Source: Thermoplasmata archaeon
GTDB taxonomy: Archaea > Thermoplasmatota > E2 > JACPAO01 > JAHFTW01
Direction: 5' to 3'
DNA: 28,098 nucleotides
Assembly: GCA_034667805.1 (NCBI GenBank)
Contig: JAXDQQ010000313.1
Coordinates: 1 to 28,098, forward strand
A model generated the notes under the pieces. It saw only the letters and a list, made by a program, of their open reading frames with translations, searched no databases and was not told the origin of the DNA. Made by a program: the position numbers and the translations under genes. Of this stretch, positions 3 to 28,098 are shown in pieces (position 1 is the stretch's first letter; every line of letters starts with the position of its first letter).

Positions 3-950
3 CAGTACGTGCACAACGCCCTGGCCCTCGGGCTCAAGCCGGAGCGCGCGGAGTTCTACTTCCAGACCAAGCGGCACCGCGTCACCGACCTGGCGCACCG
101 CTTCTCGCAGAAGGTCAACTGGTCGACCTTGTCCTCCCTCTACGGCTTCACCGGCGAGACCTCCCTGGCGCACGCGATGGCGCCGATGATCCAGGCCGCC
201 GACATCCTGCACCCACAACTAGACTCGACCGGCCCTCGGCCCGTCCTTGTCCCCGTCGGCGTCGACCAGGACCCGCATGTCCGCTTGACGCGCGACATCG
301 CGCAGGATTCCCGCGCCTTCTCGCTGCAGGAGACCAAAGAGGGCGACCTCGGTGTCTTCGTCAAGGGCGACGAACGCGTCAAGGAACTCCTCGACCTGGC
401 GGAGCGCACCATCCGCGACCAGGGGTACGGGGAACTGAAGCGCAACGACCCGTACAAGGCGCTCTACGTCCGCAAGGCCGGCAAGACCGACGCGCGCCGC
501 ATCGACCTCGCCCTGGCCCGCGCCGAGGCGAAGGCCGGCGAGCCCGGCCTGCTGCGGCCGTCGGCGACGTTCCACCGCTTCCAGACCGGACTGACGGGCG
601 GCAAGATGTCCTCGTCCAAGCCCGAGACCAGCGTGTACCTCACCGAGTCCGTCGAGTCCGCCACCAAGAAGGTCAAGGCGAGCGTCACCGGCGGCCGCGC
701 GACGGCGGAGGAGCAGCGCCGCATCGGGGCGGAACCCGAAAAGTGCCCGGTGTACGAGTTGTACCTCTACCACCTGGCCAAGGACGACGCGCACCTGCAG
801 GAGGTCTACGACACCTGCCGCACCGGCAAGCGGCTGTGCGGCGGCTGCAAGAGCGAGGCCATCGGGTTGCTCGCCGAGTTCCTCAACGGCCACAAGGAGA
901 AGCGCGACGAAACGCAGCACCTCATCGCGACGGTCGTCTCGAAGGAATGA
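3..950 (+). CDS. trpS: Tryptophanyl-tRNA synthetase, archaeal type (5'-truncated by window edge)
   Basis: Frame is open from base 3 (QYVHNALALGL...). It contains the class I motifs HPQL, VPVGVDQDPHVRLTRD and KMSSS, a long insert before KMSSS, and C-terminal C-x23-C-x6-C-x2-C. Stop TGA at 948-950. Confidence 0.96.
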   Translation, partial: QYVHNALALGLKPERAEFYFQTKRHRVTDLAHRFSQKVNWSTLSSLYGFTGETSLAHAMAPMIQAADILHPQLDSTGPRPVLVPVGVDQDPHVRLTRDIAQDSRAFSLQETKEGDLGVFVKGDERVKELLDLAERTIRDQGYGELKRNDPYKALYVRKAGKTDARRIDLALARAEAKAGEPGLLRPSATFHRFQTGLTGGKMSSSKPETSVYLTESVESATKKVKASVTGGRATAEEQRRIGAEPEKCPVYELYLYHLAKDDAHLQEVYDTCRTGKRLCGGCKSEAIGLLAEFLNGHKEKRDETQHLIATVVSKE

Positions 951-15600: not shown

Positions 15601-16903
15601 CCTGGACGCCTTCCCGGCCTCGGGCCCCGCCCTCGGCGGCACCGACGTCGTGGTCCGCGGCACCGGCTTCGCCGAGCACGCGACGGTCACGTTCGGCGGC
15701 ATCGCGGTCCCCGCGGACGACGTCGTCGTGTCGGCGAACGGGCAGAGCATCAACGTGGTCGCGCCTAGCCACACGGCCGGTCCGGCCGTGATCGAGGTCG
15801 CCAACCCCGACGGCAAGAAGGTGACCCTCTCGAGCGGGTTCACCTACCTCGGCGCGGGCGGGGCGGTCTCCACCGTCCCGACGCTGTCCACGGTCTCGCC
15901 CAACCAGGGCGTCCTGGCGGGCAACACGGCAGTGACCCTCACCGGCACCAACTTCGCCGGCACGCCGACGGTCACCTTCGGCGGCGTCGCGGCCACCGAG
16001 GTCACGCTCGTGTCCTCCATGCAGATCACCGCGAAGACGCCGGCCCATGCGGCCGGCGTGGTGGACGTCGTCGTCACCATCGGCACGCAGACCGCCACCA
16101 AGACGGCCGGCTTCACTTACACCGACACGCCCTCGACGGGCGGCGGTGGCGGTGGCGGCTCCGGCGGAACGGGCGGCACCGGCGGGACTGGCGGTACCGG
16201 CGGCACGGGCGGCACCGGTGGGACCGGCGGCACGGGCGGGACGGGCGGACCCCTGGTCCTGACGGCCGCGGCCATCAAGAACGCCAACGACCGGATCAAG
16301 ATCACCGTCACCCGCGAGGGCAACGAGAACGTGATCTCCATCGACCTGCCCTCGAGCCGGCCCGCGACGGTGCTCGGCCTGCAGGTCTGGCGCTCCAACA
16401 GCCCGTACGACCTAGTGGACGAGATCCCGGCCACCGACACCGAGTTCCGCGACTCCGGCGCCAACGCCAAGGCGACGACGAAGTACCTCGTCACGATGTT
16501 CTACGGCAGCACCGCTGCGCTGGGCAAGTTCACCAGCAGCACGGCGCCGGACACCGACGACTACCCCGGCGTCGCCTCGACGGACGGGTCCAGCTCGGAC
16601 AGCGGCAACGGCTCCTTGCCGACGTGGGCCATCGTGCTCATCGCCCTGGGCATCCTCTTCCTCGTGGTCCTGGTCGCGGTGCTCATCGCCCGCGGCCGCA
16701 ACCGCGAAGGCAACCAGGCCGCCGCGCAGGGCTACGCCTGGCAGGAAGAGGGCGAGGCCAAGGCCGCCGAAGGCGAATGGCAGCCGCCGGCCGAGGTCCA
16801 CCAGGCCCGCTGCCCGGCGTGCGCCACGAGCTTCACGGCCACCGGCCAGAAGCCCATCGTGACGGTCTGCCCCGGCTGCGGCAAGAAAGGCATCCTCCGC
16901 TAG
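12677..16903 (+). CDS. IPT/TIG-repeat surface protein (12 domains) with (GGT)n linker, FN3-like domain, TM helix and cytoplasmic zinc ribbon (1408 aa)
   Basis: Signal peptide MQKPVALVFALLLALGALTVVPSAAA. Twelve repeats of APTITSVSPxSGxxxGGTxVTITGTNF...VxVxNPDG...FTY. TM at 16625-16690. CPAC-x15-CPGC at 16811-16879. Confidence 0.94.
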   Translation: MQKPVALVFALLLALGALTVVPSAAAAPSVTSVSPSSDDTNGGTDVTLTGTGFGTDFGTVTFGGNAAELISWTDTVIHTYSPPRNTTLTTPSPTGAVNIVVTDSDGAATTFGNGFTYTTSSAPTVTGSSPNFGTTNGGTAITIQGTNFAPGHFAPLVYLGGTPAEVTAHAATSITVTSPAHTPGSVSIVVRNPDNKAASLGTAFSFVTAQAPTITTVAPASGPSTGLAGVVITGTNFFTDPAVTFGGVLGTVTGSTGSTITVTAPPHTSGTVAVVVQNRDGGSVTKANGFTFNDGTPPALSTAPASVVTGSIAGGTLVCLPGTGIQPDAVVKLDGLLAYDVEVPADTSCTGPDNAISFRSPAHAALGTVGVEVTNPDGQSATRSNVFTYRNLLFLQSISPTTGSCNGGTTVTLTGFGFASGSKVFFGSKEATGVSGSGASLTAVTPGGTCTSLGSVPVAVLSPNGEKATLAGAYTYTGASAPTITSVSPTSGSTNGNYALTITGTNFFVPPTSGTKPTVTVGGIPAKVGAVTATTIAITVPTKAEGALNPAPIIVSNPGGQAVTSNLFQYVTATDPAISATAGSTNPVTNSATNGGATYTLTGTGFATGSSVPTPTSVPANGDILPKVCVGDTTADSLCTGGILATLSGTPTATSIAFIIPARTGWTATVADDVYVINPNGDLSNSPNLINYNADSAAPTIDSAAGDVSPVTGSSLGRTSVTIKGTGFSVTNKPTVTIGGAAATVTSVSTTSLTVSTGARASGTNLDILVTNPDGDSVIATQKFTYTQSAPPTILGSGGFSVTGSALSTALPITITGTNFAKELDATHPLMFGSLDATTVVVVSDTQITAVIPSSALEGVVTVVVKNKDGQSASLANSFRYFPAPPTITGLSDDTDSVNGGDSTNINGGGFEKAFSPFIGGQPVRDAKFNNAGQFTVETPSHAAGVVETAIVDEFGQTATLPASFTFVVALAPTILDAFPASGPALGGTDVVVRGTGFAEHATVTFGGIAVPADDVVVSANGQSINVVAPSHTAGPAVIEVANPDGKKVTLSSGFTYLGAGGAVSTVPTLSTVSPNQGVLAGNTAVTLTGTNFAGTPTVTFGGVAATEVTLVSSMQITAKTPAHAAGVVDVVVTIGTQTATKTAGFTYTDTPSTGGGGGGGSGGTGGTGGTGGTGGTGGTGGTGGTGGTGGPLVLTAAAIKNANDRIKITVTREGNENVISIDLPSSRPATVLGLQVWRSNSPYDLVDEIPATDTEFRDSGANAKATTKYLVTMFYGSTAALGKFTSSTAPDTDDYPGVASTDGSSSDSGNGSLPTWAIVLIALGILFLVVLVAVLIARGRNREGNQAAAQGYAWQEEGEAKAAEGEWQPPAEVHQARCPACATSFTATGQKPIVTVCPGCGKKGILR
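16139..16249 (+). repeat. Gly-rich coding repeat G7-S-(GGT)9-GG
   Basis: Nine GGT tripeptides (16163-16243) with varied synonymous codons. Confidence 0.9.
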
Positions 16904-21621: not shown

Positions 21622-24600
21622 TTGTCCGTTCCGGCCATTGCCCGCGCCTCGCGTAGCCGTATCCTGCCCATCGCCCTGGCCTTCGTGCTTGGCCTGACGG
21701 TGATGCCCGGATTCAACCTGGTCCAACCGGTCGCCGCGGCGGCCCCCGCCCCATCGTCCCAGTTCGGCGCCGACGGGCTGGCCTCCTGGACCACGACCTC
21801 GAAGGCGAACACGTTCGCCGGCGAGCCATCGATCGGCATCAGCCACAAGGACGGCGTCGTCCACGACGCGCTCTACCAGTCCGGCATCGACACCTACCGC
21901 GTGTCTTGGGACGCCAACGGAGTCGGCACCTGGACCGACGTCACCGACCCCGTCGTAGGCCTCGTCACCGCCACCTCCGTCCTCACGGACCCCATCCTCT
22001 TCACCGACCACGAGACCGGCCGCACCTTCGCCGGCAACCTCCAGGACGCCGTCTGCGGCATGTTCTCCTACACCGACGACGACGGCGAGAACTGGAACCC
22101 GATGGTGGGTACCTGCGCCCTGCCCGCCTACGACCACGAGACGATCGCCTACGGCCCATGGCACGAGCCGAAGCCGGCGCAGGCCGTCCTGTCCGACAAG
22201 GCAGCCTACTACTGTGCCCAGGAGGCCGAGGACATCTGCTGGACCAGCTACGACGGCGGCATGACCTTCACGCCCCTGTCGCCGGCCTCCCCTCTCTTGG
22301 ACTGCGAGAGCACGTTCGGCCACGTCAAGATCGGGCCCGACGGCACCGTCTACATCCCGAACAGCATCTGCTTCGACGCCGGCGGCAACATCCGCAGCGG
22401 CTTCATGTTCAGCGAGGACAACGGCCTGTCGTGGGACTACGCGACCGTCCAATCCTCCGCCAGCGGCGCCCCGTTCGACCCGTCCCTCGACGTCACGCCG
22501 AGCGGCTGGGCCTACATCGGCAACGCGGAAGGCGCCGGCGCCGGCGGGGCTTACATCGGCCTCACCAAGGACAACGGCGCCACGTGGGAGGACGTCGGCC
22601 CCGGGACCTCCAAGTACTACAACGTGGCCACGGAATGGAACGCCGACCACCCGGCGAACGAGGACATCAACGCCGTGGAGTTCGCCGAGGTCGTCGCCGG
22701 TGACGACGACCGCGCTGCCTTCGCCTTCCTGGGCAGCAGCGGCAGCGGCGACAAGGGCGCCGACTGCGCCGCCTCCGACCACGTCTGGTACCTCTACGTC
22801 GCCATGACCTACGATGCCGGCAAGAGCTGGCAGGTCAGCAAGGCCGACCCCAACCCGGTCCAGCGCGGCAAGATCGCCAACGGTGGGACCCTCGCCGGCA
22901 ACTGCCGCAACCTCCTGGACTTCAACGGCATCGACCTGGACGCGGAAGGCCGCGTCTACGTCGCCTACGCCGACGGGTGCCTGGCCTGCTCCGCGCCCCA
23001 GACCAACGAGCAAGCGACGATCGCCCGCCAACTCACCGGCAAGGGCCTGTACGCTGCCTACGACTCCGGCTCCGGCCCCGTCGGAGGCGAACCGGCGATC
23101 TCCATCTCCTCGCCCTCCAGCGGGTCGTCGGTCGCGTCCCCGGTCACCATCTCGGGAAGCGTCGACCGCGACGCCGGCACGGGCTCCGGGCTGTCCGTCG
23201 ACGCGGGCGGGCCCTACTCGGGCGCCTCAAGCGCCGCCATCGCCATCGCGGCCACGGTCACCGGCGGCACGGCTCCCACCTGCGCCTGGACCGGCGCGGG
23301 CGCCACCTTCGGCGACGCGGCGCAATGCTCCACGACCGTCACCTATGCCTCCGCCTCCGGCTCGCCGTTCACCGTCACGGTGATGGCCAGCGACGGCTCC
23401 GACTCGGCATCGGACACGGCGACCGTCACCGTCGGCGGCGCCGGGACCCTCCTGGGGACCGACCCCTCGGGCGACACCGCCGCCACCTCGGCCGATGTGT
23501 GCCCAGCGCAGACGCCGCCCTGCAACGTCGCCAACGTGGCGGCTGCGCGCGACGGCCTCGACCTCACCTCCGCGTACGTCAAGTCGGATGGCAGCGACGT
23601 CGTCTTCACCTTCGGCGTCAAGGACGCCAACAAGTTCTTCGTCGAGCCCAGCGGCGACCCGGGCGCCATCCCGGCCAGCCCCAACGGCGGGCACATCCTG
23701 GAGTACCGCCTCAACGTCGGCTTCACCGGACCGACGGGCGACACCACGCCTGACGGCATGGCCCACGACGTGGCCGTCGTGCGCGCCCGTGGCTCTAGCG
23801 AACTCAGCGCCACCTACGACCGCAAGGTCCAGGTCGAAGGCGGCTCGCTTTCCGGCGGGCCTCTTTCCCTGGGGACCGAAATCGGCACCGCCACCTGGGA
23901 CGCGGCGAGCGACACGTTCACCGTGACGTTCCCGACGTCCAACCTCGACTACCTGCCGCCCCTGACGAACCTTGAGGTGACGTCGATGTACGTCATCGAG
24001 GGGACCGGCTCGAACAGCATCGTCACGATGGACGAACTGGACAACGTCGCGACCACGACCTGGACGCCATCGACCAACGGCGGCTCCGGCGGCGGCGACC
24101 CGACGGCCTGCGCCGCGTACTGGAGCACCGACGTCGACAGCGAGGAGGAGCACCAGGCCGCCGAGGACTGCGACAGCTTCCTGCAGGACACGACCGGCAC
24201 CGGCGAAGCCTGCGGCCTGTACTCGCAGGATGGCGACGCGAGCGACCCGGTATCGTGCACGCCGGCGGGCAGCGCCGACCTGAACGCGCCCATCCAGTGG
24301 CCCCCGGGTAGCAGCTCCGCGGCTCCCCGCCATGGCATCCTCTGGCACATCCTCGACCTGTTCGGGGCGGCGCCCGTGCGCGCGGCCCCCGTCCTGGGCC
24401 AGGGCTCCGCGCAGACGCTGTACTTCCACCAGGGCACCGTGCCCGTGGGCAACCTCGACACGCTGTACGCCAACGGCAACGGCATGGACCGCACGGCCCC
24501 GACGGCCAGCGAGCCCGCCGCCTTCGGCGCCCAGAACGAGCTGACCAACACGGCCTCGCCGCATACGCTCTCCGAGCCCTGCTGGATCTACGTCGGCGAC

Positions 24601-27600
24601 ATCGACCTGTCCGGCGCCCCGATGACGGTCGCCTGGTACGCCTCGTTCGCGGGAGCCGGCACCAGCCCGGGCACGGTCCCGTGGCAGGTGAAGGTCTACG
24701 TCGCCACGGGCGCCGCGAACCCTAACCCCGCCACGCCCACGGCCTCCAAGCAGGCCGCCTACGACCTCAGCGCGACGCCGACGCTGCTCACCATGACCAT
24801 CCCCAGCGTCACCGGCACCGGCGACCACCTATACGTCCAGGTCACCCCGGTCAACGCCGTGACGGGCCTGGCGACCGGCGGCGTCATCCTGTACGACAGC
24901 ACCGACTATCCCAGCGGCGTCCAGGTCGGCACCAGCACCGGGTCCTCGAGCACAAGCTCGAGCTCCTCCAGCTCCTCCAGCACCTCGACGACCGGCAGCC
25001 CGGCCGTCGAGCGCGTCGAGCTCTACGAGGCATCGGCGCTCCTCGGCCACCAGGACGTCACGACGTCGGGCGCCTCGCCCACCGCATCCTGGAGCGTCTC
25101 CGGCCTTGACCTCGGCGCCGGCGACCACACCTTGACGGCCAAGTGGTTCGACGCCGCGGTGCCCTCCAGCGGCACGCCGCTCGACACCGCCGACGTGACG
25201 TTCACCGTCTCGAACGGCGCCGACCCGTGCGACGCTGACACGACCGACCCCACGATCTCCGCCGCGACGGCGACGGCCACCGGGACCACGACCGCGACGG
25301 TCAGCTGGTCCACGGACGAAGCGTCGGATGGCGTCGTCCACTACGGCACCACGGCCGGCTACGGTTCCGATGCCACCGCCAGCGGCACGACGTCACACAG
25401 CGCCAGCCTCAGCGGCCTGGCCGCCGGGACGACCTACCACTACCAGGTCGAGTCGACGGACGGGTGCGGCAACACCGCCACGTCCGATGACCAGACGTTC
25501 GCCACGGACGCGGACGAGACGCCCCCCACCACGGAGGCCTTCGTCACCATCGACTCGCCGCTGGACGGCGCCTCGCTGGAAGACGCCGCCTTCACGGTGG
25601 ACGGCACGGCCGGCCACAAGGAAGCCGCCGTCGTGGGCGACAGCAACGGCGACGGCTTCGTCGTCATCGCGGTGCCCGACACGGGCATCAACCCGTACCA
25701 CCGCGACTTCTGGGAGGACACCTACCCGCGCAACACGGACAGCGACCCGGCCAACGACGTGGACTTCCGCGCCTACCCGGGCACGTACCTGGACGGATTC
25801 CCCGCCGCGGTGCCCTCGCTCGACCTGACCATCGACGGCGGCTTCCACCTCGGCGCCGACACCGCGAAGTTCAGCACCGTCCCCACGGGCAGCCTGCGCT
25901 GGATCCCCGGCACGAAGATCATCGGCGCGTACGACGCTGGCGATGCGACCACCGCCAACGGCGCCGCCGACACCCTGCCGCTCTTCGACGACGAAGGCAC
26001 CGGGCTCTTCGCAGGCGGCCACGGCACGGCCAGCTCGAGCGTCGCGGCCGGCAACCTGTTCGGCAGCTGCAAGGAATGCCTCCTGGTCGCCGTCGAGAGC
26101 TTCGGCGGCGACGAGTGGGCCTACTCGCAGGACTGGATCGACATCGTCACGGTCAGCGGCGGCCCCGTCGCCAACATCCCGGACGGTTCCGTCGGCATCT
26201 TCCCTGACACGGGCCGGTTCTTCGCGCCCGAAGGCCAGCAGGAGGCGGTCGAGCGCGGCGTGAGCCTGCTCTACGCCGGCGGCAACGGCAACGACGGCAA
26301 CTTCCTCACGCCCGGCCAGACCTACCTGAGCACGGGCGTCGGGCCGGGTTGGAACGTGCGCGTCGGGGCGGTCAACAACGAGCCGTTCCCCTTCCAGGAC
26401 GGCTCGTACTCGATCGTGCAGTCCAACAAGCCGGTGGACATCTCGTCCTACGGTGCCGGCACCATCCCGGCGGCCTGCAACACGGACTCGACGGGCGACT
26501 GCGGCCACAGCGGCACCAGCTCGGCCACGCCCATCACGGCCGGCCACCTCGGTGACCTGATCCTGCACGCCCGCCGGATGCTGGGCGACAATGGCCGCAC
26601 CGGCGCCTTCCGCGACACCGCCATCAACGCGGGCGTCGTCGCCAGCGGGACCCCCGTCGCCGGCAACCCGTACCTCGAGGACGGGAAGTTCACCCGCGCG
26701 GAGGCCTGGTACATCCTGAAGCAGGCCGCCAGCCCGCTCGCGCCCTCGCCCGTGGACTTCAACCACATCGTCACGGTCGGCGTGGGCGCCACGCCCGTCG
26801 ACTACGCGTACGCCGGCTACGGCGTCGTGGACGACGACGCAGAAGCGCGCGCCATCGCGATGCTCGACGACGGCACGGCCCTGCTGCGCGACACGGCGGA
26901 CGCGGACACGTTCTTCGCGCTGGACCAAGAGGTCCGCGGCGCGCTTTGGGGCGGATGGGACGACGACGCCGACACCCTGCCGGCGCCCGCGTTGTCCACG
27001 CCCATCAGCCTCGAAGCGCTCGGCCTCGAGCCGCTTGACGTGGCCGGCGACTCCGACCTGCTCGCCGATGCCCTCGCCAGCCTGCAGGCACCGGCCCGGG
27101 CCCCGGCCATGGCGGCCAGCGGCGCGCTCGGCCCGCCCTGCCTGGGCACCGGCGCGGCCAGCGTCTCGGTCTACCTCGACAGCGTCGCGCCCGCCAACCT
27201 GCTGGGCACCGACGCCCTGTCGGGAGCGGACGGAGCCTGCTCGGACGACTGGAGCGTCGACGTCGACCTCACGGGCGCCACGGCCGGCACCCACGCGCTG
27301 GTCGCCGTCTACGATGACGGCGCCGACGGCGAGGCCACCGCCCAGGTGGGCATCAGCCTCGACACGATCGGCGTCCTGCAGGACGGCCAGCCGGTGACGG
27401 TCACCCTGGCCGCCGCGACCGACCGGTACTACCGGGTCGACGTGCCAGCGGGGACCGACCTGCTGAGCGTCGCCATCGACGGCCCGGAGTGCGACCCTGA
27501 CCCAACGGTCGGCTGCACGTTCGACGCGGACCTCTTCGTCAAGGCCGGCGCGAAGCCGACCGGGGCCGAGGTCTGCAGCGCGCCGGCCGCGCCCCTCAAC

Positions 27601-28098
27601 GACGCGGACTGCGGGACCACGGTCTGCGCCCCCGCCGAAGGGGACAGCGACGAGGCCTGCGACATGCCTGAGCCGGTGGCCGGCATCTGGTACGTCATGC
27701 TCCACCCCTACGCAGGGTCCGGGACGCTCACCTTGGTGGCCGACCTCGACCCGGCGGACATGGACGGCGACGGCGTGCCCGACGCGCGCGACGACGATGC
27801 CAATGGCGACGGCGTCCCCGACGAAGTGGGTTCCGGCCTGCCGGACCCGTCCACGGTCGGCGACGGCATGGTGGCGTTCATCCAGCTGCCGACGGACCCG
27901 AGCAACACCGCCCCGGTCATCGTGGGCGGCGCGGACCTGACCATCCGGGTCAAGGTCTACACGGGCCCATCCTACGCCCTTGCCAACAGCGGCGCCTACC
28001 GCCTGGTGCTGCAGGTCGACTGCGGCGCCCTGCAGCCCACGGTGACCGCCCAGGCGCCGGGCGCCTGCGCCGGCGGCGCGGACACCACCACCCGGACC
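21622..28098 (+). CDS. Giant secreted multidomain S8 (subtilisin-like) peptidase, >2159 aa, 3'-truncated: Asp-box beta-propeller, PKD, Ig-like, FN3, S8, PPC, DxDGDG
   Basis: Manually translated; no in-frame stop from TTG 21622 (GGTGGT at 21607) to the window end, so it is absent from the ORF track. Signal peptide RSRILPIALAFVLGLTVMPGFNLVQPVAAA. Five Asp-boxes (22069, 22243, 22408, 22561, 22804). PKD-like VDAGGPYSG. FN3-like TVSWSTDE...LSGLAAGTTYHYQV. S8 triad VIAVPDTG (Asp 25678), GGHGT (His 26020), SGTSSATP (Ser 26518), oxyanion YAGGNG (Asn 26284). PPC-like YYRVDVPAG...DADLFVK...AGIWYVML. Confidence 0.92.
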   Translation, partial: MSVPAIARASRSRILPIALAFVLGLTVMPGFNLVQPVAAAAPAPSSQFGADGLASWTTTSKANTFAGEPSIGISHKDGVVHDALYQSGIDTYRVSWDANGVGTWTDVTDPVVGLVTATSVLTDPILFTDHETGRTFAGNLQDAVCGMFSYTDDDGENWNPMVGTCALPAYDHETIAYGPWHEPKPAQAVLSDKAAYYCAQEAEDICWTSYDGGMTFTPLSPASPLLDCESTFGHVKIGPDGTVYIPNSICFDAGGNIRSGFMFSEDNGLSWDYATVQSSASGAPFDPSLDVTPSGWAYIGNAEGAGAGGAYIGLTKDNGATWEDVGPGTSKYYNVATEWNADHPANEDINAVEFAEVVAGDDDRAAFAFLGSSGSGDKGADCAASDHVWYLYVAMTYDAGKSWQVSKADPNPVQRGKIANGGTLAGNCRNLLDFNGIDLDAEGRVYVAYADGCLACSAPQTNEQATIARQLTGKGLYAAYDSGSGPVGGEPAISISSPSSGSSVASPVTISGSVDRDAGTGSGLSVDAGGPYSGASSAAIAIAATVTGGTAPTCAWTGAGATFGDAAQCSTTVTYASASGSPFTVTVMASDGSDSASDTATVTVGGAGTLLGTDPSGDTAATSADVCPAQTPPCNVANVAAARDGLDLTSAYVKSDGSDVVFTFGVKDANKFFVEPSGDPGAIPASPNGGHILEYRLNVGFTGPTGDTTPDGMAHDVAVVRARGSSELSATYDRKVQVEGGSLSGGPLSLGTEIGTATWDAASDTFTVTFPTSNLDYLPPLTNLEVTSMYVIEGTGSNSIVTMDELDNVATTTWTPSTNGGSGGGDPTACAAYWSTDVDSEEEHQAAEDCDSFLQDTTGTGEACGLYSQDGDASDPVSCTPAGSADLNAPIQWPPGSSSAAPRHGILWHILDLFGAAPVRAAPVLGQGSAQTLYFHQGTVPVGNLDTLYANGNGMDRTAPTASEPAAFGAQNELTNTASPHTLSEPCWIYVGDIDLSGAPMTVAWYASFAGAGTSPGTVPWQVKVYVATGAANPNPATPTASKQAAYDLSATPTLLTMTIPSVTGTGDHLYVQVTPVNAVTGLATGGVILYDSTDYPSGVQVGTSTGSSSTSSSSSSSSSTSTTGSPAVERVELYEASALLGHQDVTTSGASPTASWSVSGLDLGAGDHTLTAKWFDAAVPSSGTPLDTADVTFTVSNGADPCDADTTDPTISAATATATGTTTATVSWSTDEASDGVVHYGTTAGYGSDATASGTTSHSASLSGLAAGTTYHYQVESTDGCGNTATSDDQTFATDADETPPTTEAFVTIDSPLDGASLEDAAFTVDGTAGHKEAAVVGDSNGDGFVVIAVPDTGINPYHRDFWEDTYPRNTDSDPANDVDFRAYPGTYLDGFPAAVPSLDLTIDGGFHLGADTAKFSTVPTGSLRWIPGTKIIGAYDAGDATTANGAADTLPLFDDEGTGLFAGGHGTASSSVAAGNLFGSCKECLLVAVESFGGDEWAYSQDWIDIVTVSGGPVANIPDGSVGIFPDTGRFFAPEGQQEAVERGVSLLYAGGNGNDGNFLTPGQTYLSTGVGPGWNVRVGAVNNEPFPFQDGSYSIVQSNKPVDISSYGAGTIPAACNTDSTGDCGHSGTSSATPITAGHLGDLILHARRMLGDNGRTGAFRDTAINAGVVASGTPVAGNPYLEDGKFTRAEAWYILKQAASPLAPSPVDFNHIVTVGVGATPVDYAYAGYGVVDDDAEARAIAMLDDGTALLRDTADADTFFALDQEVRGALWGGWDDDADTLPAPALSTPISLEALGLEPLDVAGDSDLLADALASLQAPARAPAMAASGALGPPCLGTGAASVSVYLDSVAPANLLGTDALSGADGACSDDWSVDVDLTGATAGTHALVAVYDDGADGEATAQVGISLDTIGVLQDGQPVTVTLAAATDRYYRVDVPAGTDLLSVAIDGPECDPDPTVGCTFDADLFVKAGAKPTGAEVCSAPAAPLNDADCGTTVCAPAEGDSDEACDMPEPVAGIWYVMLHPYAGSGTLTLVADLDPADMDGDGVPDARDDDANGDGVPDEVGSGLPDPSTVGDGMVAFIQLPTDPSNTAPVIVGGADLTIRVKVYTGPSYALANSGAYRLVLQVDCGALQPTVTAQAPGACAGGADTTTRT

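What the first reader, a model, noticed from the sequence alone, without database searches (positions are those of the whole stretch)
21622..28098. Hidden >2159-aa protein with Russian-doll architecture: whole domains, including a subtilisin, inserted inside split Ig-like folds
Seen twice. (1) The Ig-like start EPAISISSPSSGSSVASPVTISGSVD (23089-23166) resumes only about 610 aa later as PAVERVELYEASALLG...WSVSGLDLGAGDHTLTAKWFD (from 25000). The gap holds a PKD domain, two other domains and a Ser-rich linker. (2) AFVTIDSPLDGASLEDAAFTVDGTAG (25534-25614) resumes about 510 aa later as SVSVYLDSV...LLGTD...WSVDVDLTGATAGTHALVAVYD (from 27160), with the entire S8 protease in between. Known: bacterial Ig-like (Big) repeats read continuously as xISSPxxGxxVxxxVTIxGxAxD..VxxVExYxDgxLLG..W..L..GxHTLxAxxxD. 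Inference: the loop after strand B is used as a reusable insertion site for displaying enzymes and adhesins.
Basis: partly seen in the sequence, partly recalled or inferred. Interest (0 to 1): 0.72.

Follow-up and report, generated by a model that had tools for sequence, protein, structure and literature searches.

The report
Split Ig domains carrying nested protease
A giant secreted protein of an uncultured Thermoplasmatota archaeon has two small Ig-like domains that are each cut in two by inserted domains, one insert being a complete subtilisin-type protease. This "split domain" display trick is already known from bacterial adhesins, but here it appears in an archaeon, in a different Ig family and with an enzyme as the insert.

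Summary
ORF 21622-28098 (+) has no stop before the contig end and encodes at least 2159 aa. All four quoted peptides sit at the stated coordinates.

- **Half matches.** Residues 491-524 match Pfam Big_7 positions 1-35. Residues 1122-1173 match positions 25-70.
- **First split domain (Ig1).** In an AlphaFold2 model of residues 486-1205, only the two halves are confident (pLDDT 71-95). Together they superpose on whole solved beta-sandwich domains of about 90 residues (Z about 10).
- **Second split domain (Ig2).** It brackets a complete S8 protease (D1353, H1467, N1555, S1633; subtilase fold Z 26). The support is sequence profiles plus a weak two-chain prediction (0.44 against 0.01 for the best control).
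- **Relatives.** They keep the halves but change the cargo. Small membrane-anchored proteases in related archaea carry the same bracket around the S8 domain.

The principle is known: RTX adhesins have split Ig-like domains, and the pilin RrgA has nested domains. This scan also noted similar cases on other DNA. I class this as a new variant of a known kind and of moderate interest. Direct contacts for the second domain and all functions remain untested.

The parts
21622..28098 (+). Open reading frame of the giant secreted protein (P0001, at least 2159 aa). The 3' end is cut by the contig end.
   Evidence: Full-length relatives: P0003 (2299 aa, 52% identity), P0029 and P0177.
21622..21741 (+). 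N-terminal signal-peptide-like segment (residues 1 to about 40: a basic stretch, then a hydrophobic stretch, then AAAAP).
   Evidence: Read from the translation. Relatives start with similar hydrophobic leaders. No predictor was run.
21754..23076 (+). BNR/Asp-box (sialidase-like) beta-propeller region, residues about 45-485.
   Evidence: Pfam BNR scores 31.9 bits (cut-off 27) in 3 stretches. BNR_2 scores 24.1 bits, below its cut-off. The region is conserved in P0003, P0177, P0178 and P0021.
23089..23178 (+). Ig1 N-half (strands A, A' and B), residues 490-519.
   Evidence: Big_7 profile positions 1-35, E 0.018. Leave-out HMM hit at 491-515. AF2 pLDDT 71/91/92. Part of one sandwich in the model.
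23182..23436 (+). Cargo 1a: PKD-like domain, residues 521-605.
   Evidence: Pfam PKD scores 15.9 bits, below the 23.5 cut-off. Iterated profile links it to 126 PKD-like segments in 53 fetched proteins. AF2 confidence is low.
23437..24261 (+). Cargo 1b: beta-sandwich module X1 (Glucodextran_C-like), residues 606-880.
   Evidence: Atlas look-alikes carry PF09985, score 0.92. The model superposes on glucodextranase 1ulv_A residues 771-1020 (Z 8.7, 156 residues aligned). Homologues are in P0006, P0023 and P0177.
24304..24927 (+). Cargo 1c: module X2 of unknown family, residues 895-1102.
   Evidence: Among the fetched proteins, only P0089 645-846 is a relative, apart from the window's own P0002 (E 2e-91 after iteration, 40% identity). 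No Pfam hit. AF2 pLDDT is below 40.
24928..24993 (+). Ser/Thr-rich linker that returns the chain to Ig1, residues 1103-1124.
   Evidence: Read from the translation.
25000..25218 (+). Ig1 C-half (strands C to G), residues 1127-1199.
   Evidence: Big_7 profile positions 25-70, E 0.012. AF2 pLDDT 80-95 with five strands. Superposes together with the N-half on whole sandwich domains of about 90 residues.
25270..25506 (+). FN3-type domain (Pur_ac_phosph_N-like), residues 1217-1295, continuous.
   Evidence: PF16656 scores 34.2 bits against a cut-off of 30.
25534..25629 (+). Ig2 N-half, residues 1305-1336.
   Evidence: Leave-out HMM hit at 1306-1331, E 4e-6. The orthologous site in P0003 matches Big_7 positions 1-26. 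AF2 gives strands at pLDDT 72-85.
25648..26976 (+). Cargo 2: complete subtilisin-type (S8) protease domain with a helical C-terminal extension, residues about 1343-1785. Catalytic residues: D1353 (25678-25680), H1467 (26020-26022), oxyanion N1555 (26284-26286), S1633 (26518-26520).
   Evidence: PF00082 E 1e-10. Profile against PDB subtilases E 9e-15. AF2 pLDDT mostly above 90. VIA Z 26 to SBT3, Tk-SP and furin. Conserved columns. Residue positions.
26977..27153 (+). Low-confidence return linker, residues 1786-1844.
   Evidence: AF2 pLDDT 38-82, partly helical.
27154..27375 (+). Ig2 C-half, residues 1845-1918.
   Evidence: Leave-out HMM hit at 1846-1898, E 5e-6. Big_3_5 positions 37-73, E 0.05. 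Two-chain prediction with the N-half scored 0.44 against 0.01 for the best control.
27427..27702 (+). PPC (bacterial pre-peptidase C-terminal) domain, residues 1936-2027.
   Evidence: PF04151 scores 34.5 bits against a cut-off of 25.9.
27751..27831 (+). Asp-rich DxDGDG-type repeats (thrombospondin-type-3-like by eye), residues 2044-2070.
   Evidence: Read from the translation. No Pfam hit here. The aligned region of P0003 also reads DMDGDGVPDARDADRDGDG.
27859..28098 (+). First copy of a C-terminal unit of about 165 aa, cut by the contig end. A second copy and a stop codon lie at the end of contig C258.
   Evidence: The last 250 nt are 80% identical to C258:7647-7897 on the minus strand. The C258 open frame ends like the C-terminus of P0029.

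Best explanation
The gene encodes a giant, acidic (pI about 4), secreted multidomain protein of a Thermoplasmatota archaeon. It is probably tethered to the cell surface.

The domain order is: signal peptide, BNR propeller, Ig1, FN3, Ig2, PPC, Asp-rich repeats, C-terminal repeat units.

Ig1 and Ig2 are Big_7-type Ig-like beta-sandwiches that are discontinuous in sequence. The first 25-30 residues (strands A/A' and B) are laid down first. The chain then leaves through the B-C loop, folds the cargo, and returns to add strands C to G.
- Ig1 cargo is three modules in series: PKD-like, Glucodextran_C-like, and an unknown module.
- Ig2 cargo is a complete, apparently active S8 protease.

Shown here:
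- the half-domain matches;
- assembly of the two Ig1 halves into one sandwich in the model;
- the subtilase fold and catalytic residues;
- conservation of the halves with changing cargo in relatives.

Inferred:
- the two Ig domains stay in line as stalk elements while their cargo sticks out sideways, as proposed for split domains of RTX adhesins;
- the Ig bracket brings the passenger's two ends together, so the half-Ig/S8/half-Ig cassette can be placed anywhere in a chain of domains;
- the protein degrades or binds extracellular polymers at the cell surface.
For: **1. Complementary Pfam matches.** Residues 491-524 match Big_7 positions 1-35 (16.1 bits) and residues 1122-1173 match positions 25-70 (16.6 bits). 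The same pattern is seen in P0003 and P0021.

**2. Contiguous controls.** In relatives, the same N-half and C-half HMMs hit adjacent positions in bona fide Big_7 domains: P0057 1125-1218 (43 bits) and P0045 (26.5 bits). When the halves of this protein are joined, they align over the whole contiguous-domain HMM in one stretch, with roughly additive scores. Ig1 scores 15.7 bits against 8.1 and 6.1 for the halves alone. Ig2 scores 17.0 bits against 11.6 and 8.4. The reversed order breaks the alignment.

**3. Leave-out HMMs and reversed-sequence control**.

**4. AF2 model of residues 486-1205.** The overall model is poor (mean pLDDT 50), but the N-half scores 71/91/92 and the C-half 80-95. Whole single domains superpose on model range 7..715:
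- 3pe9_A: 87 of 90 residues, Z 10.1, rmsd 2.8;
- 3pdg_A: 89 of 91 residues, Z 10.0;
- 9kvu_A: 88 of 94 residues, Z 9.8.

This requires both halves to lie in one compact sandwich.

**5. Ig2 two-chain prediction.** N-half plus C-half gave ipSAE 0.44 (three runs: 0.43-0.50) against a best control of 0.01. The runs agree in at least 90% of contacts, and the partner's pLDDT is at least 66. The tool's verdict was "weak support". The mark was reached by 58 of 80 solved complexes and 2 of 110 mismatches. At 0.60 or under, only 7 of those 80 solved complexes reached it, as did both mismatches that passed. My own alignments were used.

**6. Relatives.**
- P0003, P0029, P0177, P0178, P0006, P0023 and P0089 keep both Ig1 halves but carry different cargo, 458-599 aa long.
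- The N-half/S8/C-half bracket recurs in P0003, P0029, P0050, P0058 and P0073, and in related archaeal genomes at L010, L011 and L013.
- Other N...C pairs enclose a recurrent unnamed module of about 180 aa.

**7. The S8 domain.** PF00082 scores 41.9 bits. Its profile hits PDB subtilases at E 9e-15. VIA gives Z 26. H1467 and N1555 are invariant and S1633 is conserved in at least 90% of 120 relatives.

**8. Surface tethering.** The small bracketed proteases P0050, P0058 and P0073 end in a transmembrane helix plus a basic tail.
Against: - No coordinates or contact maps were available. Contact between the Ig1 halves is deduced from superposition ranges, and only from a prediction built on an 8-sequence alignment.
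- For Ig2, the AF2 model gives the C-half only pLDDT 55-83 and three clear strands. The complex score is in the band the tool calls weak.
- Each Pfam half-match is individually below the Big_7 gathering score of 24.1 bits.
- The 3' end of the gene is missing, so any anchor in this protein is unknown. The candidate C-terminus on contig C258 shows no transmembrane helix.
- Sideways display and any protease or binding activity are inference.
Confidence: 0.75

Rival explanations
1. Only Ig1 is a true split domain. Around the protease, the N-terminal hairpin and the C-terminal beta segment are extensions specific to the protease. For example, the hairpin might dock on the catalytic domain as a folding aid or latency element in a clade that lacks the I9 propeptide. 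In this reading they do not form one Ig-like sandwich.
For: - The AF2 model of 1296-1925 gives the C-half only pLDDT 55-83 and three strands.
- No Ig-like match reached the top 50 of the structure search of that model.
- The complex score is in the weak band.
- In P0050, P0058 and P0073 the hairpin follows the signal peptide directly, where other subtilases carry a propeptide.
Against: - The hairpin matches the same Big_7 N-half profile as Ig1.
- The C-half aligns with the Ig1 C-half and with Big_3_5 positions 37-73.
- The joined halves align across a contiguous Big_7 HMM with additive score.
- The two chains are predicted to bind at 0.44, against 0.01 for the best control.
- Every protease with the N-hairpin also has a C-half somewhere downstream.
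Confidence: 0.15
2. The halves are independent, partial (atrophied) beta elements. Each packs on its sequence neighbours, so nothing is inserted and the protein is a plain string of domains.
For: Partial domains do exist (PMC4432964, found). Each Pfam half-match is below threshold on its own.
Against: - The Ig1 halves are the only confident parts of the model, and together they superpose on whole domains of about 90 residues.
- N and C halves occur in matched order across dozens of relatives with variable spacing.
- Contiguous versions of the domain exist.
Confidence: 0.07
3. The pattern is a chance resemblance of low-complexity Ser/Thr/Gly-rich sequence to Ig-like motifs, or an assembly chimera.
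For: The protein is rich in A, G, T, S and D. The source is a fragmented MAG, 66% complete.
Against: - Reversed-sequence controls gave 0 hits.
- The same layout is present in P0003, P0029 and P0177 from other samples.
- The reading frame is open for 6.5 kb.
Confidence: 0.02

Closest known systems
Split Ig-like domains of RTX adhesins (MpIBP, Vibrio cholerae FrhA, Aeromonas hydrophila AhLap; PMC12077191, PMC10865825; crystal structure 9CSE as cited in PMC12077191)
   Same: An Ig-like beta-sandwich that is discontinuous in sequence. A passenger domain buds out of it and the chain returns to finish the fold. Several such units occur in one giant surface protein. Homology tools miss them because each part is too short.
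   Different: - In RTX adhesins the split comes after a single first strand of about 12 residues. Here it comes after strands A/A' and B, about 27 residues.
- In RTX adhesins the passengers are single ligand-binding domains (PA14, CBM, peptide-binding, vWFA, RTX roll). Here they are an S8 protease and a string of three modules.
- RTX adhesins are Gram-negative type-1-secreted proteins with C-terminal RTX signals. This is an archaeal protein with an N-terminal signal peptide and a Big_7-type sandwich.
RrgA pilus adhesin of Streptococcus pneumoniae and related Gram-positive tip pilins
   Same: [quoted passage not shown]
   Different: RrgA uses isopeptide-bonded pilin domains with a vWA-type passenger and a sortase signal, and its nesting is two levels deep. 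Here there is one level, no evidence of isopeptide bonds, the host is an archaeon and the passenger is a protease.
Multidomain subtilases with accessory beta-sandwich domains (KP-43 1wmd, Tk-SP 3afg, furin/kexin P-domain, ScpA 7bj3, plant SBT3 3i6s)
   Same: S8 catalytic fold (Z 24-26), D-H-S triad with oxyanion Asn, and beta-sandwich domains next to the protease.
   Different: In those enzymes the sandwich follows the protease, or a PA domain is inserted into the protease. Here the protease itself is the insert, bracketed by two parts of one sandwich. No I9 propeptide was found.
Contiguous Big_7 (PF17957) domains, for example P0057 1125-1200 and P0018 548-617
   Same: Same sequence family as the joined halves.
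   Different: They are uninterrupted. This protein has a 607-aa insert and a 508-aa insert at the B-C loop.

Membership tests
Pfam Big_7 (PF17957) Ig-like domain: Ig1 | Match to the family HMM at or above the gathering score (24.1 bits) over the 70-position profile | tested here: inconclusive
   There are two separate matches: 16.1 bits (profile 1-35, residues 491-524) and 16.6 bits (profile 25-70, residues 1122-1173). Each is below the cut-off. They are complementary, and their rough sum of about 33 bits would pass. A local HMM of contiguous relatives aligned them end to end.
Pfam Big_7 (PF17957) Ig-like domain: Ig1 | Seven- to eight-stranded Ig-like beta-sandwich fold | tested here: met
   The AF2 model has strands 6-12, 18-20 and 23-31, then 645-651, 654-661, 669-677, 682-692 and 703-712. 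It superposes on whole sandwich domains at Z 9.8-10.2 and rmsd 2.6-3.2. This is a prediction only.
Pfam Big_7 / Ig-like domain: Ig2 | HMM match and sandwich fold formed by residues 1305-1336 plus 1845-1918 | tested here: inconclusive
   - Pfam gives only Big_3_5 positions 37-73, E 0.05, for the C-half, and Big_7 positions 1-26, E 0.12, for the P0003 orthologue of the N-half.
- Leave-out HMMs hit both halves at E about 5e-6.
- The two-chain prediction gave 0.44 against 0.01 for the best control, which the tool rates weak.
- The AF2 C-half has pLDDT 55-83.
Split Ig-like domains of RTX adhesins | An Ig-like fold discontinuous in sequence, with a passenger domain emerging from it and returning to it | tested here: met
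   Met for Ig1 in the model. Ig2 is supported by sequence and by the weak complex pass.
Split Ig-like domains of RTX adhesins | The split lies after the single first beta-strand (PMC10865825, PMC12077191) | tested here: not met
   The N-halves here hold two to three strands, about 27 residues, so the split is in the B-C loop.
Split Ig-like domains of RTX adhesins | Part of a Gram-negative RTX adhesin with a C-terminal RTX beta-roll and a type I secretion signal | tested here: not met
   The genome is archaeal: it has Ribosomal_S8e, 96% identical to that of a Thermoplasmatota MAG. The leader is N-terminal. No RTX match appears in Pfam. The 3' end of the gene is missing.
Peptidase S8 (subtilase), PF00082 | HMM match above the gathering score | tested here: met
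   41.9 bits against 21.8 when residues 1300-1850 are scanned. The domain is not listed when the whole 2159 aa is scanned.
Peptidase S8 (subtilase), PF00082 | Catalytic triad in the order Asp-His-Ser, plus the oxyanion-hole Asn | tested here: met
   D1353 (in DTG), H1467 (in HGT), N1555 and S1633 (in GTSxAxP). Across 120 relatives, H and N are invariant and S is conserved in at least 90%.
Peptidase S8 (subtilase), PF00082 | Subtilase alpha/beta fold | tested here: met
   AF2 mean pLDDT 83. VIA Z 26.2 to 3i6s_A and 25.7 to 3afg_B. Foldseek probability 1.00.
PKD domain (PF00801) | HMM match above 23.5 bits | tested here: inconclusive
   15.9 bits for residues 525-604. Iterated profile links it to many PKD-like segments. 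AF2 confidence is low.
Glucodextran_C (PF09985): module X1 | HMM match, or fold like glucodextranase residues 771-1020 | tested here: inconclusive
   No Pfam hit. Atlas look-alikes score 0.92. 1ulv_A gives Z 8.7 with 156 residues aligned.
BNR/sialidase-like propeller | Asp-box repeats above cut-off; sialidase catalytic residues | tested here: inconclusive
   BNR scores 31.9 bits against a cut-off of 27, in 3 stretches. BNR_2 scores 24.1 bits, below 31.4. Catalytic residues were not examined.
RrgA-type nested pilins | Isopeptide-bonded pilin domains and a sortase (LPXTG) signal | not tested
   The 3' end is missing and no isopeptide analysis was done. The host is an archaeon.

The most novel reading that the evidence does not exclude
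The half-Ig/S8/half-Ig unit is a self-contained, transposable "plug-in" cassette of Thermoplasmatota and other uncultured lineages. In this reading the Big_7 bracket does three things. It replaces the missing I9 propeptide as a folding scaffold. It ties the protease's two ends together. It lets evolution graft enzymes, or whole strings of domains, into any stalk at the B-C loop. In relatives such as P0041 and P0069 the order N N ... S8 ... C C would then be real two-level nesting. Grafting at this loop would be a general building rule for archaeal surface proteins.
Probability: 0.25. Interest if true: 0.6.

Novelty: new variant of a known kind. Interest (0 to 1): 0.42.

Why it matters
**Annotation.** Split domains defeat routine annotation. 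Each half scores below threshold, and here even the S8 protease is missed when the whole protein is scanned. Giant surface proteins of uncultured archaea are therefore systematically under-described. Recognising the bracket gives correct domain boundaries for expression constructs.

**Biology.** The bracket marks which modules are displayed "heads". It also shows that the split-domain display principle, so far described for bacterial RTX adhesins and pilins, is used in Archaea with an enzyme as the passenger.

**Engineering.** For protein engineers, a natural Ig loop that tolerates 180 to about 1000 inserted residues is a candidate display scaffold.

Tried and rejected
- **NCBIfam scan of the whole protein:** no family.
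- **Pfam scan of the whole protein:** did not list S8 or Big_7. Only sub-segments did.
- **Big_7 search of the MAG itself:** found only the Ig1 N-half and no contiguous domain. A six-frame scan of the MAG with the half-HMMs found no other carrier.
- **phmmer of 1296-1925 against PDB sequences:** nothing. The profile search worked.
- **Structure search of the 1296-1925 model:** all top rows were subtilases, so the Ig2 sandwich could not be tested that way. Its absence from the list says nothing.
- **The search for related loci in genome contigs:** failed with the alignment and found no relative with the single protein. The genome search on relatives worked instead.
- **Module X2:** no Pfam hit. 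The Atlas gave only unnamed viral look-alikes at 0.93, with recognition below the reliable level, so I treat this as a lead only. AF2 did not fold it.
- **The passengers of about 180 aa in relatives:** no Pfam family, and BLAST does not link them to X2.
- **Literature:** a search for split Ig-like domains in archaea, and another for nested subtilases, found nothing in the held library. The glucodextranase search was uninformative.
- **Sending the joined halves to Pfam or to a folding job:** The join was tested only locally.

Full report
**Observation.** The window is one whole contig (C313) of a 66%-complete MAG. ORF 21622-28098 (+) starts at TTG and runs off the contig end, giving 2159 aa (P0001). 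The gaps are 607 and 508 residues.

**Domain map.** The map comes from Pfam on sub-segments and from structure searches.

| Residues | Element |
|---|---|
| 1 to about 40 | signal-like leader |
| about 45-485 | BNR/Asp-box propeller |
| 490-519 | Ig1 N-half |
| 521-605 | PKD-like domain |
| 606-880 | module X1 (Glucodextran_C-like; 1ulv_A Z 8.7) |
| 895-1102 | module X2 (unknown family) |
| 1103-1124 | Ser-rich linker |
| 1127-1199 | Ig1 C-half |
| 1217-1295 | FN3 / Pur_ac_phosph_N |
| 1305-1336 | Ig2 N-half |
| about 1343-1785 | S8 protease |
| 1786-1844 | linker |
| 1845-1918 | Ig2 C-half |
| 1936-2027 | PPC |
| 2044-2070 | Asp-rich DxDGDG repeats |
| from 2080 | C-terminal unit, cut by the contig end |

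The whole-protein Pfam scan lists neither S8 nor Big_7, which explains why the protein looks "hidden".

**Are the halves two parts of one domain? Sequence evidence.**
- Residues 491-524 match Big_7 (PF17957) profile positions 1-35. Residues 1122-1173 match positions 25-70. Each scores about 16 bits, below the 24.1-bit cut-off, but the two are complementary. The orthologue P0003 and the more distant P0021 show the same half-matches.
- I built HMMs of the N-half and C-half from relatives. In P0057 and P0045 the two HMMs hit adjacent positions, and Pfam calls those segments complete Big_7 domains at 43 and 26.5 bits.
- Joined in silico, the halves of this protein align over the whole contiguous-domain HMM in one stretch, with roughly additive scores. 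The reversed order breaks into two pieces.
- HMMs rebuilt without P0001, P0003 and P0029 still pick exactly the four claimed sites as their best hits in the 2159 aa. Reversed sequences give no hits.

**Structural evidence.**
- *Ig1.* AF2 on residues 486-1205, with an 8-sequence alignment, gave a poor model overall (mean pLDDT 50). The N-half is at 71/91/92 and the C-half at 80-95, while nearly all the cargo is below 50. An exhaustive structural comparison then showed whole single beta-sandwich domains superposing on model range 7..715. These were 3pe9_A (87 of 90 residues, Z 10.1, rmsd 2.8), 3pdg_A (89 of 91, Z 10.0) and 9kvu_A (88 of 94, Z 9.8). The C-half alone has about 70 residues and the targets are compact. 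The first 30 and the last 75 residues of the segment must therefore form one sandwich in the model.
- *Ig2.* AF2 on residues 1296-1925, with 120 sequences, gave mean pLDDT 83 and pTM 0.77. The N-half strands are at pLDDT 72-85, but the C-half reaches only 55-83. Subtilases filled the structure-search lists.
- *Ig2, two-chain test.* A two-chain prediction of the Ig2 N-half with its C-half scored ipSAE 0.44 (runs 0.43-0.50) against 0.01 for the best of three controls. The runs agree in at least 90% of contacts and the partner's pLDDT is at least 66. The tool rates this as weak support. The mark was reached by 58 of 80 solved complexes and 2 of 110 mismatches. At 0.60 or under, only 7 of those 80 solved complexes reached it, as did both mismatches that passed. 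My own alignments were used. Given the sequence evidence the prior was high, so I take Ig2 as probable but not shown.

**Relatives and reuse of the site.**
- P0003 (2299 aa, 52% identity) aligns over residues 66-516 and 1131-2053, but not over the Ig1 cargo.
- In an alignment of eight proteins, the N-half and C-half columns are conserved, while the 458-607 residues between them are a shuffled set of modules.
- The protease domain has 237 relatives at E ≤ 1e-10 among 1.84 billion representatives. Many are stand-alone enzymes of about 450-500 aa, so the protease is a self-contained unit.
- A subset carries the bracket: P0003 and P0029; the small proteins P0050, P0058 and P0073 (signal peptide, N-half, S8, C-half, Asp-rich repeats, transmembrane helix and basic tail); and loci in related archaeal genomes (L010, L011, L013).
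- Other N...C pairs enclose a recurrent, unnamed module of about 180 aa (P0031, P0034, P0038, P0044, P0054, P0059, P0061).
- The protease family is found in 28 of 41 related genomes searched.

**The protease.** PF00082 scores 41.9 bits. The family profile hits PDB subtilases at E 9e-15. The fold matches at Z 26. D1353, H1467, N1555 and S1633 are in place. No I9 propeptide was detected, and in the small relatives there is no room for one between the signal peptide and the N-half.

**Context.** The genome is archaeal. It has Ribosomal_S8e, and its S8e protein is 96% identical to one from a Thermoplasmatota MAG. The window also encodes other giant surface proteins, one with nine TIG repeats and one with Calx-beta and TSP3. 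The last 250 nt of the window are 80% identical to the end of contig C258. There, an open frame continues with the tail of one C-terminal unit, then a second unit, then a stop. That frame ends like the C-terminus of P0029. The gene therefore probably continues on C258 and is roughly 2400-2450 aa long. This is an inference.

**Mechanism.**
- *Shown.* There are two Big_7-type sandwiches interrupted at the same loop. The passengers are complete domains. The halves are conserved with variable cargo.
- *Inferred.* The sandwiches remain in-line stalk elements while the cargo projects sideways, as proposed for RTX adhesin split domains (PMC12077191, PMC10865825). The bracket brings the passenger's termini together and so makes the cassette portable. 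The protein works at the cell surface on extracellular polymers.

**Comparison with what is known.**
- Split Ig-like domains are described in RTX adhesins. There the split comes after a single first strand, the passengers are single ligand-binding domains, and the proteins are Gram-negative type-1-secreted.
- RrgA shows two-level nesting: D3 in D2, and D2/D3 in D1 (PMC5333627).
- This case works like those but is not a member of either group. It is archaeal, uses the Big_7 family, splits in the B-C loop, and carries an enzyme and a three-module string as passengers.
- Earlier notes of this scan describe similar split-Ig or nested-S8 layouts in other genomes. I did not test them.
- Nothing on archaeal split Ig domains was found in the held literature.

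**Verdict.** It is overstated only in "hidden", in "Russian doll", and in the implied novelty of the principle. I class it as a new variant of a known kind, of moderate interest.

Noticed in passing
window 27849-28098 and L002 (G000:C258:6147-7953, minus strand): The contig ends inside a C-terminal unit of about 165 aa. The end of contig C258 carries the tail of one such unit, a second copy (80% DNA identity) and a stop. Its last residues resemble the C-terminus of P0029. The gene probably continues there, and the repeat probably broke the assembly.
   Followed up: partly
window 25648-26976: Pfam reports the S8 domain only when a sub-segment is scanned (41.9 bits), not when the whole 2159-aa protein is scanned. 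The precomputed Pfam list of the near-identical fragment P0002 also lacks PF00082. Automatic annotation would therefore miss the protease.
   Followed up: yes
P0041 (N826-857, N882-912, S8 938-1351, C1609-1637, C1673-1720) and P0069 (N899-916, N952-982, S8 998-1439, C1670-1709, C1730-1775): Two relatives show the order N N ... S8 ... C C. This would be true two-level nesting of split Ig domains around the protease.
   Followed up: no
P0031 740-922, P0034 2091-2360, P0038 876-1045, P0044 1057-1235, P0054 824-1010, P0059 1035-1234, P0061 865-1054: A recurrent passenger module of about 180 aa, mutually 27-46% identical, sits between N and C halves in many proteins of the protease family. It has no Pfam family.
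   Followed up: partly
P0050, P0058, P0073 (745-865 aa): These are small relatives made of signal peptide, N-half, S8, C-half, Asp-rich (thrombospondin-type-3-like, by eye) repeats and a C-terminal transmembrane helix with a basic tail. They look like minimal surface-anchored versions of the bracketed protease, with no room for an I9 propeptide.
   Followed up: partly
window 24304-24927 (module X2): The nearest ESM Atlas clusters of X2 are unnamed proteins of tailed phages (Uroviricota), score 0.93. The query's recognition value was below the reliable level, so this is a lead only.
   Followed up: no
window 6610-10989 and 12677-16903: Two further giant surface-protein genes lie in the same window. 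One is 1459 aa with Calx-beta and a bacterial TSP3 repeat. The other is 1408 aa with nine IPT/TIG domains. The contig looks like a surface-protein island.
   Followed up: no
G000:C153:2527-2892: The genome encodes archaeal ribosomal protein S8e, 96% identical to one from a Thermoplasmatota MAG. The window, at 70% GC and with very acidic proteins, therefore comes from an uncultured Thermoplasmatota archaeon.
   Followed up: yes
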